Source: a virus
Lineage: Duplodnaviria; Heunggongvirae; Uroviricota; Caudoviricetes
Length of the DNA stretch: 40,160 nt
Direction: 5' to 3' (one strand)
Virus record (IMG/VR): IMGVR_UViG_2548876867_000015
Location: 1 to 40,160 of that record
The position numbers are program-made. The stretch's first letter is position 1, and each line of letters opens with the position of its first letter. Below are positions 33,001-36,000 of the stretch, piece after piece.

Positions 33001-36000
33001 CGCCTTGCCAGCTTCTGCTCCCACTGTGCCTGATGGTATGCCTTACCCTCAGCCATCCAGTAAATTCTGAACTCTGCAAGTTCCTGTGCCGTTGGCAGAC
33101 TGTCCAGGTAGATCCCCTGCAATGAGCTTTTCCGAAGAAAGTCATCTGATGGCTGCCATTGTTCATGCATGACAAATTTGCCTAATTGCCCTGGCCCACC
33201 AGGAGGAACAAAGTTATTCATCACGGCGTTGTTTGCGCCGGGGTCATGAGGCACAGAACCTCGGGTTTTTGTCCTGCTCTCCCTCTCTTGGTTAAATGAC
33301 TGGTTATATGACTGGTTCTGGATCCCGTTTTTGGGATCATTCAACATCCCGTTTTTGGGATCATTCAACATCCCGTTTTTGGGTATATTCCCGTTTTCGG
33401 GAACATTACCGTTTTCGGGTTCATTGCTCCCTTCCCGGTTGCCTTTAATGTTCCCGTTTTTGGTTATATTAAGAGAGAAAACCCGCACTCTTTTCGTCGC
33501 TCCCTTTCTCTCTCCGGTATCTGAAATAAGCCCCATTTTCATGAGCGATATAAGCCCGGCCTGCACGGTTTTTTTATTCAGGCAAGTGTCTTTAACGAGG
33601 CGTTCTATGCTGGGGTAGCAGAGGTTATATTCATCGGCTCTGTCAGCCATCGAGAGCAGTATGAGCTTTAATGATGAGCTACCTGGATCTGTCTCCCAGG
33701 CCCAATCTGTTGCATGTCTGCTCATGATTAATCTCCGCTATCAGCTTGAATGTTGTGGGGAGGAATTAATCATGATCTGCTTAATCTCTGCCCTGATGCG
33801 ACGGTTTGATTCCATGGTGCACTCAACACAGTGTCCGTTGTAAACCCAGCGTTCACTGTCATGTCCGTGCTTACATGGTTTTCCGGTGTAGTAGCGTTTA
33901 AGTCCGCGCTTTGCGGCATCAATACGTGTAATGATTTCCATGGTAAGCCCTGTTATTAGTATTGGGATTACGGTTATTTTGTGCTGACACAAAAAAAAGA
34001 TCAACCAGATTTGGTTTTTTATTACCTTTAAGGTGCGAATAGATATGAAAAGACCGCCGGATGGCGGTCTACAGAGGTTTGTGGCTGGATATCATGAGTA
34101 GAAGAAGTATGCCAGTTCTGCTTTTGAGCGCAGCCATTGTCTTGTTTTACAGGCTTTAAAAAGCCCATTCATCAATACTTTACCTGGCATTTTGCGCTTA
34201 CCTGTTAAGTGAGTCTGGATATAGTGACTCGTCGTTCCGGCTTCCTGTGCGAAGGCTTCACGCTCATCCGGAGTAAGTGCAAGCCAGTGCTTTTTGAAAT
34301 CGAAATGTCCGTTATCGCTCATAGCTATTGCCTGATATTTATTTCAGATAATAAATATTCACCCATAAGGTAACAAAAATCAAGGATAGTTACCTATGGG
34401 GTGCATTTACCTGTTGGGTAATATTGCTTTAAATTGAATCATCTACTGATTCATATATGAGGCGATTCTCCAGAAAATGAAAAGTATCCAGGACGTCCGC
34501 AGGCAAAATCTCAACGACTTGATCGACCGTGAATTCAATGGTGTTCAGACGCGGATGGCAGAAAAACTTGGAACTCAGGCAAATCTGGTAAACCGCTGGG
34601 CTCTTGGCAAGAAGGTTATCGGCGACCAGGTTGCGCGAAAAATTGAAGCTGCCGCCAATAAACCCCGTAACTGGCTTGATATCGATCGCTCGCTTTCTCA
34701 GGAGGGGGTTCAGCCTGTCGGACCAAGCGACATTGGTCAGCTGGCGGCTCACAACCTGGAACGCTGGATGAGCGAAAGCCGCGACCTTTCAACACAGGGA
34801 AAACTTCACCGCGCATCCGGCGTCGCCCAGGTGACAATTAGCCGCCTGTTAAACAATGAGGTCAGCGTTTCCATTTCCACCCTGGAGAATGTTGCATCAG
34901 CATTCGGGCGTCACGGATATGAACTACTGATTCACCCGCATGACCCTGCAACTATCAACTATGACCGCTCGCGCTACGCATTGTTACCTGAAACAGAGAA
35001 GGCAAAGATCGAAAGTTACATTGAATTTGTCATCAGCCAGAACGAAAAAAGCAAACAATAAAACTATAGTTTTCAGTAAGTAAGCCGCCTCATGGCGGCT
35101 TTTTTATTGCCCGCACAATTACCTTGCGGGTAATTTTTTTAACTCATATCTATTGACATCAAACCAGATACGCATAATCATTACCTAAACGGTAACAAGC
35201 CGAGGTAACAAGTTATGCAGTGGAAAATCATCAACGGTTGGTACTGCGTTACTGCATGCGGATTCATGAGCTGGAAGTTCCGCACCTTACAGGAAGGCAT
35301 TAAGTGGGCTTTCGTCAGCAAAGAAGCTCGCGATGTGGCCAACGATAACGAGATATGGGAGGGCTGATAATGAACGTTAATCAGCAGAAAAATCTTCAAA
35401 AAATCATGCTGGCATTCGACAAGGACTACCGCCTGTCAGAACAGCTATATGACCGACAAGTTGAACTGATTGAGAGCATCCGACTTCATCAACTGTCCTC
35501 AACTTTCGACGTTGTAACAGGCAAAGGCGTTCGTCAGGAAGTACTGGAGGCTGCTAAAGACAGCCCTGAGTTCGAAGAACTGATGGATGCCTATCGGCGA
35601 GAGGCAATGGCAATTATCGCCCGCTGGGATCTGGCGGATCAGCTTGATGGACAGAAGGACGCGGCATGAAACCGGGAATTTATTTCGACATCAGCAACGA
35701 AGACTACCACGCCGGTGACGGCGTGAGTAAGTCGCAACTTGACATGGTTGCCAAGAATCCGGCGCTTCTTAAATGGGTTCAGGCAGCACCAGAAGACGAA
35801 GAGAAAAAGTCTGCACTGGATATGGGAACCGCATTGCACTGTCTGCTTCTGGAGCCTGGAGAGTTCGACAAACGCTTCATTGTTTCACCGAAATTCGATC
35901 GTCGGACGAAACAAGGTAAAGCTGACGAAGAGGCATTTCTTCGTGATGTGGCGGATATGGGGATTACGGTACTTGATGCCGAGCAGTGGCGGAAACTGGA

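What the first reader, a model, noticed from the sequence alone, without database searches (positions are those of the whole stretch)
34022..35195. Immunity switch built on a dual-HTH repressor without a self-cleavage domain, paired with a distant antirepressor
Seen in sequence: the 194-aa repressor has two HTH-like segments and no recognisable S24 peptidase region (no Ala-Gly/Ser-Lys pattern). It is divergent from a 76-aa Cro-like gene across three operators, followed by a tR1-like hairpin and a further operator. The antirepressor lies about 27 kb away with operator copies in front of it. Inference: SOS induction does not act by repressor autocleavage but through derepression of the antirepressor.
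Basis: partly seen in the sequence, partly recalled or inferred. Interest (0 to 1): 0.5.

Follow-up and report, generated by a model that had tools for sequence, protein, structure and literature searches.

The report
Known LexA-controlled antirepressor phage immunity switch
This is the lysogeny switch of a common phiV10/epsilon15-type E. coli phage, whose non-cleavable repressor is most likely switched off after DNA damage by a small LexA-controlled antirepressor, as already shown for the related Salmonella phage SPC32H, so it is real but not new.

Summary
The window is a phiV10/TL-2011b-type Uetakevirus. The 194-aa repressor (34477-35061) is all-helical, with two HTH-like domains and no S24 peptidase. 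It faces a 76-aa Cro-like gene across three TTACC-N5-GGTAA operators. Further operators sit at positions conserved with phages SPC32H and epsilon15.

The repressor is a full-length homologue of SPC32H Rep (PDB 5D50/5D4Z).

An 85-aa ORF (6911-7168) is 87% identical to SPC32H Ant. It lies 20 bp downstream of the only near-consensus LexA box in the window (6872-6891). That box is conserved in 14 related phages and prophages, with one left-half mismatch in three. In phage SPC32N it carries one of only two base differences from SPC32H.

- It has its own promoter, overlapped by a repressor operator.
- An isrK/C4 antisense-RNA switch of the P1 immI type controls it.
- Its C-terminal domain is homologous to the small Ant.

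Interest is low. The only mildly new aspect is this two-antirepressor wiring.

The parts
34477..35061 (+). Rep, the 194-aa prophage repressor. It has an N-terminal HTH domain (about 1-72), a linker (73-88), a middle HTH_3-like domain (about 89-150) and a C-terminal tail (about 151-192). The tail is homologous to the tetramerisation and Ant-binding domain of SPC32H Rep.
   Evidence: ORF. Pfam HTH_3 in two stretches, no S24. PDB 5d50_A E=6.6e-42 over residues 1-190. AF2 model all-helical. Foldseek top hits are 5d50 and 5d4z, followed by XRE HTH proteins. Identity to SPC32H Rep by region is 53% / 34% / 45%. 86 homologue clusters, none with an S24 domain and nearly all about 194 aa apart from a few shorter fragments.
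34092..34322 (-). Cro-like 76-aa lytic regulator, divergent from rep.
   Evidence: ORF. PHROG 35 'transcriptional repressor' E=5.6e-13. Syntenic with SPC32H_042.
34359..34373 (.). Operator (1 mismatch). It overlaps the -35 of the leftward cro promoter-like site (TTGTTA-17-TATTAT, 34376-34348).
   Evidence: Position conserved in SPC32H and epsilon15.
34390..34404 (.). Operator (2 mismatches to the core), abutting the next one.
34407..34421 (.). Operator (perfect), proximal to rep.
34051..34070 (-).
34022..34036 (.). Operator-like site beyond the cro terminator (2 mismatches).
   Evidence: Same position and the same degenerate right half (AAGGTG) in SPC32H and epsilon15.
35082..35101 (+). Intrinsic-terminator-like hairpin after rep.
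35119..35133 (.). Operator (perfect) upstream of the rightward early promoter.
   Evidence: The epsilon15 record annotates the equivalent site as protein_bind 'repressor'.
35153..35181 (+). Promoter-like site TTGACA-17-AATCAT for the early operon (50-aa and 104-aa ORFs, RecE-like exonuclease, RecT).
   Evidence: 'TATTGACA' is conserved in SPC32H and epsilon15. Gene families.
35181..35195 (.). Operator (perfect), starting at the last base of that promoter's -10 hexamer and extending downstream.
6911..7168 (+). Small antirepressor Ant, 85 aa.
   Evidence: PDB 5d50_E E=1.4e-46. 86.7% identical to the annotated 'ant' of SPC32H. PHROG 450 E=7e-48.
6872..6891 (.). LexA box TACTGTATATTTATACAGTT, ending 20 bp before the ant start codon.
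   Evidence: 18/20 match to the consensus and the only hit in the window at <=3 mismatches, with 0 expected. Conserved in 8 Uetakeviruses and 6 enterobacterial prophages at a fixed distance. One of the two SPC32H/SPC32N differences in the 5.2-kb locus compared is C->A in its CAG.
6820..6834 (.). Operator (1 mismatch), about 38 bp upstream of the LexA box.
   Evidence: TTACC...AGGT is invariant in 8 phages and the site is perfect in 6 prophages at a nearly fixed distance. Annotated as a repressor site in epsilon15.
7172..7200 (+). Promoter-like site TTGCAA-17-TATATT for the isrK-C4-(Bro-N ant) unit.
   Evidence: Conserved in ZX5, phiV10 and Tyrion.
7200..7214 (.). Operator (perfect), starting at the last base of that promoter's -10 hexamer and covering the expected start region.
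   Evidence: An equivalent perfect site lies 35-36 bp after ant in 4 of 6 prophages.
7251..7327 (+). isrK-like sRNA with its own terminator (7305-7321). It carries CTAAGTGG (7292-7299), identical to the C4 target.
   Evidence: Rfam RF01394, 67 bits. Terminator. Motif.
7352..7435 (+). C4 antisense RNA. Its loop CCACUUAG lies at 7393-7400.
   Evidence: Rfam RF01695, 66 bits. Complementarity and covariation.
7465..7472 (+). C4 target CTAAGTGG, overlapping the GGAG ribosome-binding site of the Bro-N ant gene.
   Evidence: Three co-varying loop/target classes occur among the 9 of 10 loci where the target region is held.
7484..8194 (+). Large antirepressor, 236 aa: a Bro-N domain (17-112) plus a C-terminal domain (155-228) homologous to the small Ant.
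   Evidence: Pfam Bro-N E=5.7e-20. 43% identity to the small Ant, E=2e-16. PHROG 130 and 1760 'anti-repressor', and PHROG 450 on residues 153-234. Residues about 90-236 are identical to ZX5 ORF4.

Best explanation
This is the SPC32H-type Rep/Ant antirepression switch of an epsilon15/phiV10-like podophage (Uetakevirus).

Lysogeny. Rep binds TTACC-N5-GGTAA operators through its N-terminal HTH. It oligomerises through its C-terminal part and shuts off several promoters: the divergent cro promoter, the rightward early (recombination) promoter, and others around the genome. Rep has no LexA/CI-type peptidase domain, so RecA cannot make it cleave itself.

Induction. Host LexA sits on a near-consensus box just upstream of a small gene, ant (6911-7168). 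DNA damage removes LexA and the 85-aa Ant is made. Ant binds the C-terminal domain of Rep, breaks the DNA-binding tetramer into dimers, and the lytic promoters fire.

Second module. A second antirepressor, a Bro-N fusion carrying an Ant-like C-terminal domain (7484-8194), lies just downstream. It is accessory. It has its own Rep-operated promoter and a P1-immI-type isrK/C4 antisense-RNA lock on its ribosome-binding site. It probably reinforces derepression or acts in anti-immunity rather than sensing SOS itself.

What is shown here: the homologies, the motifs, and their conservation and statistics. What is inferred by homology: LexA binding, Ant-Rep binding, the absence of Rep cleavage, and the role of the second module in this particular phage.
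For: Repressor:
- Rep is a full-length homologue of SPC32H Rep. The model is all-helical and best matches 5d50 and 5d4z.
- No S24 domain appears in Rep or in any of 86 homologue clusters.

Small Ant and LexA box:
- The small Ant is 87% identical to the crystallised SPC32H Ant.
- There is a single LexA box, matching the consensus at 18 of 20 positions, ending 20 bp before the ant start codon.
- The operator-LexA box-ant arrangement is conserved, at nearly fixed spacing, in 8 phages and 6 prophages from six other genera.
- In the 5.2-kb ant-tailspike locus compared, SPC32H and SPC32N differ at two bases, one of which is the C of the CAG in this LexA box.

Operators and co-occurrence:
- Operators are 9 perfect against 0.05 expected. 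Their positions are shared with SPC32H and epsilon15, and they are annotated as repressor sites in the epsilon15 record.
- Rep and Ant occur in essentially the same set of phage records, 36 and 35.

Literature:
- SOS, LexA cleavage and Ant-mediated inhibition of the repressor are attributed to Kim & Ryu 2013 (PMC7380047).
- Rep binds DNA as a tetramer, and tetrameric Ant splits it into dimers (PMC9638917).
- The C-terminal domain both tetramerises Rep and binds Ant (PMC9986798).
- ZX5, whose repressor is 98.5% identical, is mitomycin-inducible from 1e7 to 1e9 PFU/mL.
Against: - Rep here is only 42% identical to SPC32H Rep (34% in the middle domain), so Ant binding is inferred rather than shown.
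- The ant promoter could not be placed confidently relative to the LexA box.
- A Rep operator also lies upstream of ant, and its effect on ant expression is unknown.
- The primary papers (Kim & Ryu 2013; Kim et al. 2016; Kropinski et al. 2007) could not be read here. Some details, such as Rep not being cleaved, rest on secondary citations and my own recollection.
- The only E. coli-phage experiments found (ZX5) tested the Bro-N protein, not the small Ant.
Confidence: 0.82

Rival explanations
1. One reading: the large Bro-N antirepressor (7484-8194) is the SOS-derepressed antirepressor that inactivates Rep.
For: - It carries an Ant-like C-terminal domain.
- A protein with an identical C-terminal ~150 aa (ZX5 ORF4) lowered prophage counts about 1000-fold when overexpressed.
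- No terminator lies between the ant stop codon (7168) and isrK. LexA-controlled transcripts could therefore run into the module, and in Gifsy-1 the isrK terminator is partly read through.
Against: - The LexA box is about 590 bp upstream, directly before a different ORF.
- The Bro-N gene has its own promoter, overlapped by a Rep operator, and sits behind the isrK terminator. Its RBS is complementary to the C4 loop.
- The module is absent from SPC32H, epsilon15, BUCT554 and 2 of 6 prophages.
- It is truncated inside the Ant-like domain in phiV10.
Confidence: 0.12
2. Rep is inactivated proteolytically after all, either by RecA-stimulated self-cleavage at a cryptic site or by a partner protease of the ImmA type.
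For: Rep is an XRE/HTH_3 protein, a class that includes protease-inactivated repressors such as DdrO and ImmR. DdrO appears among the weak fold matches.
Against: - There is no S24 domain, no Ala-Gly dipeptide, and the fold is all-helical.
- No protease-like family was found in the 25 window ORFs scanned against Pfam, which lie in the immunity, early and antirepressor regions.
- The homologous SPC32H system is reported to work by antirepression.
Confidence: 0.03
3. The repeated TTACC-N5-GGTAA sites are not repressor operators. They are chance repeats or sites for another factor.
For: No binding experiment for this phage was found. Two of the three intergenic sites are imperfect.
Against: - There are 9 perfect sites against 0.05 expected, with 0 of 100 shuffles reaching that count.
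- The sites lie in intergenic positions, and those examined overlap promoter-like sequences.
- Their positions are conserved in SPC32H and epsilon15 while the spacer sequence varies.
- They are annotated as repressor-binding sites in epsilon15.
Confidence: 0.02

Closest known systems
Rep/Ant antirepression system of Salmonella phage SPC32H (Kim & Ryu 2013, J Virol; Kim et al. 2016, PNAS; PDB 5D4Z, 5D50)
   Same: - Same genus (Uetakevirus) and same gene order.
- Rep is homologous over its full length, and Ant is 87% identical.
- The same operator half-sites occur at the same positions.
- The same operator-LexA box-ant layout is present.
   Different: - Rep is only 42% identical.
- There are two operators rather than three downstream of rep.
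- An extra operator-isrK-C4-Bro-N-Ant module follows ant here. In SPC32H a convergent membrane-protein gene follows ant instead.
- Nothing has been tested experimentally for the small Ant of the E. coli phages, where it is annotated 'hypothetical protein'.
LexA-controlled antirepressors of Gifsy-1/-3 and Fels-2, and Tum of coliphage 186 (Lemire et al. 2011; Shearwin et al. 1998)
   Same: The logic is the same: a non-cleavable repressor, with the SOS signal passing through LexA to a small antirepressor encoded far from the immunity region.
   Different: There is no detectable sequence relationship. The small Ant has no significant Pfam family. The phage type and repressor fold are also different.
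Phage P1/P7 immI region (C1-controlled promoter, c4 antisense RNA, icd, ant)
   Same: A repressor-operated promoter drives a processed C4 antisense RNA. The loop of that RNA pairs with the ribosome-binding region upstream of an antirepressor gene. Specificity classes co-vary, as between P1 and P7 (the P1 details are from my own knowledge).
   Different: No icd-like coupled ORF was found. The antirepressor is a Bro-N/Ant-like fusion. The operator belongs to Rep, not to C1.
Gifsy-1 isrK-orf45-anrP locus (Hershko-Shalev et al. 2016, PMC4825925)
   Same: An isrK sRNA with a leaky terminator is followed by a structured region and an antirepressor-like gene whose translation is locked until the sRNA acts.
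   Different: Here the locus sits directly downstream of a LexA-controlled ant and behind a Rep operator. No orf45 equivalent overlaps the ant start codon. No AntQ link is known.
Lambda CI / P22 C2 / LexA-type self-cleaving repressors
   Same: Divergent repressor and cro genes across three operators, plus a second operator cluster at the other early promoter.
   Different: There is no S24 peptidase domain and no cleavage site. Operators are also dispersed at five or more other loci in the genome.

Membership tests
SPC32H-type Rep/Ant antirepression system | Repressor homologous to SPC32H Rep over both the N-terminal DNA-binding domain and the C-terminal tetramerisation/Ant-binding part. | tested here: met
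   5d50_A E=6.6e-42, residues 1-190 aligned. Foldseek top hits are 5d50 and 5d4z.
SPC32H-type Rep/Ant antirepression system | Small (~86 aa) Ant homologue encoded away from the immunity region, next to the tail-fibre/tailspike gene. | tested here: met
   5d50_E E=1.4e-46. ORF 6911-7168 is divergent from the tail-fibre gene 4622-6715, the same synteny as SPC32H_020/021.
SPC32H-type Rep/Ant antirepression system | LexA box immediately upstream of ant. | tested here: met
   6872-6891 matches the consensus at 18/20 and is unique in the window. It aligns with the SPC32H box, whose C->A change distinguishes SPC32N.
SPC32H-type Rep/Ant antirepression system | Rep is not cleaved on SOS; Ant binds Rep and releases it from DNA. 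| not testable with these tools
   This needs a Western blot, EMSA or pull-down. Only homology and secondary literature are available.
LexA/CI-type self-cleaving repressors (Peptidase S24) | C-terminal S24 domain with an Ala-Gly (or Cys-Gly) site and a Ser/Lys dyad. | tested here: not met
   No Peptidase_S24 at E<=1. No AG or CG dipeptide in the sequence. All-helical model. None of the 86 homologue clusters carries S24.
P1 immI-type antisense-controlled antirepressor module | C4 antisense RNA upstream of the ant gene, with its loop complementary to the ribosome-binding region. | tested here: met
   RF01695 at 66 bits. CCACUUAG pairs with CUAAGUGG at 7465-7472, overlapping the GGAG. Three co-varying classes occur among the 9 of 10 loci where the target region is held.
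P1 immI-type antisense-controlled antirepressor module | Prophage-repressor operator at the module's promoter. | tested here: met
   Perfect operator 7200-7214, starting at the last base of the -10 of TTGCAA-17-TATATT. It is conserved in 4 phages while the spacer varies. This is motif evidence only.
P1 immI-type antisense-controlled antirepressor module | icd-like ORF translationally coupled to ant. | tested here: not met
   No plausible small ORF ends at the ant start codon. The C4 target overlaps the RBS of ant itself.
186 Tum / Gifsy antirepressor families | Sequence homology of the antirepressor to Tum or the Gifsy antirepressors. | tested here: inconclusive
   The small Ant has no significant Pfam family. 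In PHROGs it matches only PHROG 450, 15539 and 1760. No direct comparison with Tum or the Gifsy proteins was run.
ImmR/ImmA-type protease-controlled XRE repressors | Adjacent ImmA-type (COG2856) metalloprotease gene. | tested here: not met
   The neighbouring ORFs scanned against Pfam are cro-like, a DnaT-like replication protein, lambda-P-like, a PDDEXK exonuclease, RecT, AlpA-like, PerC-like and MT-A70. None is a protease. The structural half of the genome was not scanned.

The most novel reading that the evidence does not exclude
In the phiV10/TL-2011b lineage, and in at least four other enterobacterial prophages, the known LexA-Ant-Rep switch has been extended into a two-antirepressor circuit. 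Both antirepressors share one Rep-binding module. The small Ant senses SOS through LexA. The Bro-N::Ant-like fusion is held off by Rep at its promoter and by C4 RNA at its ribosome-binding site. Once the small Ant lifts Rep, the second module fires, and IsrK titrates C4. This would give a positive-feedback, commitment or anti-immunity step. The three co-varying C4/target classes would act as an RNA-level specificity code between co-resident prophages.
Probability: 0.35. Interest if true: 0.4.

Novelty: already known. Interest (0 to 1): 0.17.

Why it matters
The finding correctly re-derives, from raw sequence, a non-canonical induction mechanism that has already been demonstrated genetically and structurally in a phage of the same genus. 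It therefore adds little new biology.

Its practical value is for annotation. The 85-aa Ant is still labelled 'hypothetical protein' in the E. coli phage records listed and in the RefSeq annotations of the best-matching E. coli genomes. The ant-isrK region matches at 80% coverage or more in 389 of 5,426 complete E. coli genomes. The only E. coli-phage study found (ZX5) tested the Bro-N protein and does not mention LexA, SPC32H or the small Ant.

The tandem arrangement of a LexA-controlled Ant and a Rep/C4-RNA-controlled Bro-N::Ant-like fusion would be a modestly interesting and easily testable extension. The question it opens is how these common prophages, which include ones in O157 and O103 EHEC strains, commit to induction.

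Tried and rejected
- My first operator pattern, with a 6-nt spacer, found nothing real. The correct spacer is 5 nt.
- A loose LexA pattern, CTGT-N8-ACAG with 1 mismatch, was uninformative: 12 hits against 14.4 expected. I replaced it with the 20-mer consensus.
- The generic sigma-70 scan was not enriched over shuffles in either region: 4 against 2.6, and 3 against 2.6. Promoter calls therefore rest on conservation and on juxtaposition with operators. I could not assign the ant promoter relative to the LexA box with confidence, so I make no claim about it.
- Pfam gave nothing for the Cro-like protein or the small Ant. PHROGs and the PDB sequence search did.
- The three primary papers (PMC3807360, PMC2698709, PMC4983836) are not held. 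I used secondary descriptions and the deposited SPC32H and SPC32N sequences themselves.
- The genome-contig scan with the small Ant returned only 6 loci because the back-translated patterns were strict. This was enough for a conservation check but not for a census.
- I looked for an orf45/icd-like coupled ORF upstream of the Bro-N ant gene and found no convincing candidate.
- I considered an ImmA-type protease or an S24 domain as the inactivation route and rejected both.
- I did not run the large representative-protein search or further structure jobs, because the verdict does not depend on them.
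Full report
**Provenance.** The window is a phiV10/TL-2011b/HEMP4-type temperate podophage of E. coli, genus Uetakevirus, the epsilon15 group. The immunity region 33700-35700 is 97.9% identical to phiV10 and 99.9% identical to TL-2011b. The left 25 kb matches HEMP4, phiV10 and TL-2011b at 96-99%. The ant-isrK region matches at 80% coverage or more in 389 of 5,426 complete E. coli genomes. This is a common prophage type.

**Observation: the repressor.** The repressor ORF is 34477-35061 (+), 194 aa.
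- Pfam finds HTH_3 in two stretches (best 106-147) and a YdaS-type HTH at 21-61. It finds no Peptidase_S24 even at E<=1.
- PHROG hits also split into an N-terminal repressor-like part (residues 4-77) and a C-terminal HTH-like part (residues 87-152).
- An AlphaFold2 model built on 23 homologues (mean pLDDT 78) is entirely helical. It has two domains and a disordered linker at 73-83.
- Its best structural matches are the SPC32H Rep structures 5D50 and 5D4Z, followed by XRE-family HTH proteins.
- The 86 homologue clusters in the large protein database are nearly all about 194 aa, apart from a few shorter fragments, and none carries S24.
- The sequence contains no Ala-Gly or Cys-Gly dipeptide.

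**Observation: the switch region.**
- The Cro-like gene is 34092-34322 (-), 76 aa, and matches PHROG 35 'transcriptional repressor'.
- The 154-bp gap holds three TTACC-N5-GGTAA sites: 34359 (1 mismatch), 34390 (2 mismatches) and 34407 (perfect).
- Downstream of cro lie a terminator-like hairpin (34051-34070, minus strand) and an operator-like site (34022-34036).
- Downstream of rep lie a terminator (35082-35101) and a TTGACA promoter-like site flanked by two perfect operators (35119, 35181).
- Perfect sites number 9 against 0.05 expected, and none of 100 shuffles reached that count.
- Alignments with SPC32H and epsilon15 show all these sites at the same positions, with conserved half-sites and variable spacers. 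The epsilon15 GenBank record annotates them as repressor-binding sites.

**What it is.** The repressor is a full-length homologue of the crystallised Rep of Salmonella phage SPC32H (5d50_A, E=6.6e-42; 42% identity overall). By region, identity is 53% in the N-terminal HTH, 34% in the middle HTH_3-like domain and 45% in the C-terminal tail.

An 85-aa ORF at 6911-7168 is 87% identical to SPC32H Ant, which was co-crystallised with Rep (5d50_E, E=1.4e-46).

Ending 20 bp before its start codon is TACTGTATATTTATACAGTT (6872-6891). It matches the LexA consensus at 18 of 20 positions. It is the only site in 40 kb within 3 mismatches, with 0 expected.

The operator-LexA box-RBS-ant layout is conserved, at nearly fixed spacing, in eight Uetakeviruses of Escherichia, Salmonella, Enterobacter and Klebsiella. 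It is also conserved in six prophages of Citrobacter, Erwinia, Superficieibacter, Pseudocitrobacter and Scandinavium. Three of these 14 sequences carry one mismatch in the left half of the box.

Comparing the deposited SPC32H and SPC32N sequences shows two differences in the 5.2-kb locus. One is C->A in the CAG of this box. This agrees with my recollection of Kim & Ryu 2013, in which a LexA-box mutation makes Ant constitutive and the phage lytic.

Rep and Ant occur in essentially the same set of phage records, 36 and 35.

**How it most likely works.** The following is by homology.
- Rep tetramers hold the operators. Review and structural papers state that LexA cleavage lets Ant be made and that Ant inhibits the repressor by protein-protein contact (PMC7380047).
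- Rep binds DNA as a tetramer whose DNA-binding pairs come from different dimers, and tetrameric Ant splits it into two dimers (PMC9638917).
- The C-terminal domain both tetramerises Rep and binds Ant (PMC9986798).
- That Rep is not cleaved on SOS is my recollection of Kim & Ryu 2013. I could not read the paper.
- Consistent with SOS inducibility, lysogens of phage ZX5, whose repressor is 98.5% identical, rise from 1e7 to 1e9 PFU/mL with mitomycin C.

The motifs, homologies and their conservation are shown here. LexA binding, Ant-Rep binding and the lack of cleavage in this particular phage are inferred.

**The large 'antirepressor'.** The 236-aa protein at 7484-8194 has an N-terminal Bro-N domain. 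Its C-terminal domain (155-228) is 43% identical to the small Ant (E=2e-16), and it matches PHROG 450 at E=4e-36.

Its last ~150 residues are identical to ZX5 ORF4. Overexpressing ORF4 lowered prophage counts from 1e9 to 1e6, so it is a plausible second Rep antagonist.

It is wired differently from the small Ant:
- A promoter-like TTGCAA-17-TATATT (7172-7200) is followed at once by a perfect operator (7200-7214).
- Next come an isrK-type sRNA with its terminator (7251-7327) and a C4 antisense RNA (7352-7435).
- The C4 loop CCACUUAG (7393-7400) is complementary to CUAAGUGG at 7465-7472, which overlaps the GGAG of the Bro-N ant gene. The same 8-mer occurs in isrK (7292-7299).
- Ten loci were compared. 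In the nine where the downstream region is held, three loop/target classes co-vary perfectly: CCACUUAG, CCUUUUAG and CCUUUGUAG. Eight of the ten also carry the same sequence in isrK.

This is the P1 immI logic (from my own knowledge) and resembles the Gifsy-1 isrK-orf45-anrP locus (PMC4825925).

The module is absent from SPC32H, epsilon15, BUCT554 and two of the six prophages. It is frameshift-truncated within the Ant-like domain in phiV10. It is therefore accessory rather than the SOS sensor.

No terminator separates the ant stop codon from isrK, so SOS transcripts may run into the module. Derepression of the Rep-operated promoter after Ant action could give positive feedback. Both points are hypotheses.

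The mechanism was inferred correctly in outline, but it was attached to the wrong or incomplete gene. 'Dual HTH' should not be read as two DNA-binding domains.

**Comparison and novelty.** This is a member of the SPC32H-type Rep/Ant system, in the same genus. All sequence-level defining features were tested and met. The biochemical ones are not testable here.
- It works like the Gifsy and 186 Tum systems but is not homologous to them.
- It is not a lambda-type self-cleaving repressor.
- The mechanism is already known.
- The small Ant is simply un-annotated in the E. coli phage and genome records examined ('hypothetical protein'). The one E. coli-phage paper found overlooked it.
- The tandem two-antirepressor arrangement, with three C4 specificity classes, is the only aspect I could not find described. 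I rate it 0.35 likely to function as proposed, and of moderate interest.

**Dead ends.**
- The primary papers were unavailable.
- A wrong spacer length was used first.
- A loose LexA pattern was uninformative.
- Generic promoter scans were not enriched.
- No orf45/icd-like ORF was found.
- No protease partner was found among the 25 window ORFs scanned against Pfam.

Noticed in passing
window 7251-7327, 7352-7435, 7465-7472; loci L004, L006, L009, L011, L012, L015, L016, L017, L019: An isrK sRNA and a C4 antisense RNA lie between the two antirepressor genes. The C4 loop and its target at the Bro-N ant RBS co-vary in three classes (CCACUUAG, CCUUUUAG, CCUUUGUAG) in the 9 of 10 loci where the target region is held. 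In 8 of the 10 the same sequence also occurs in isrK. This suggests RNA-level specificity types like those of P1 and P7.
   Followed up: partly
window 7484-8194; L004:2071-2655 (phiV10): The Bro-N antirepressor is a fusion of a variable Bro-N domain with a domain homologous to the small SPC32H-type Ant. In phiV10 the protein is truncated inside that Ant-like domain. The N-terminal ~85 aa differ between this window and ZX5 or TL-2011b, while the rest is identical.
   Followed up: partly
window 26511-26525, 29468-29500, 32014-32028, 32076-32090, 8261-8275: Further perfect operators are dispersed around the genome. One follows a TTGACA hexamer upstream of the tRNA. A pair lies upstream of the small terminase gene. 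Another pair, 62 bp apart, lies between the replication genes and the next early gene. One sits just before ORF 8279-8503. The first three positions are shared with SPC32H (sites at 3175, 12, and 35972/36034), so Rep appears to control many promoters, as P1 C1 does.
   Followed up: partly
window 6766-6793: The motif TCTATTACCTGAAAAACCACATATGGAT lies between the tail-fibre gene start and the ant operator. It is largely invariant across eight phages from four host genera and contains a lone TTACC half-site. Its function is unknown; it may be a late-promoter or activator site for the tail-fibre gene.
   Followed up: no
window 26848-26921: A tRNA gene (Rfam, 73 bits) lies at the position of the annotated tRNA-Arg of SPC32H. 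It is downstream of an operator-overlapped promoter-like site.
   Followed up: no
L001 vs L013 (SPC32H vs SPC32N), locus positions 2284 and 2471: In the 5.2-kb ant-tailspike locus the two deposited phage genomes differ at only two bases. One is in the tailspike gene. The other is C->A in the CAG half of the LexA box upstream of ant.
   Followed up: yes
window 6911-7168 and E. coli RefSeq genomes: The small Ant homologue is annotated 'hypothetical protein' in the E. coli phage records listed and in the top RefSeq PGAP hits. PHROG 450, which it matches, is labelled 'unknown function' despite the solved Rep-Ant complex. This is an annotation gap.
   Followed up: partly
window 37415-38715 and 1-1071: The rightward early operon ends with an AlpA-like regulator (37415-37663), a PerC-like activator (37773-38072) and an MT-A70 adenine methyltransferase (38053-38715) before the integrase gene. 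Two ORFs at 1-516 and 532-1071, between the integrase and the lysis genes, lie outside nearly all of the best phage matches (only TL-2011b begins at base 1) and were not examined.
   Followed up: no
window 8279-9901: Three ORFs downstream of the Bro-N ant gene (74, 287 and 167 aa) match no PHROG family or only families of unknown function (PHROG 3630 and 36918). They look like cargo attached to the accessory module. The first is preceded by a perfect operator.
   Followed up: no
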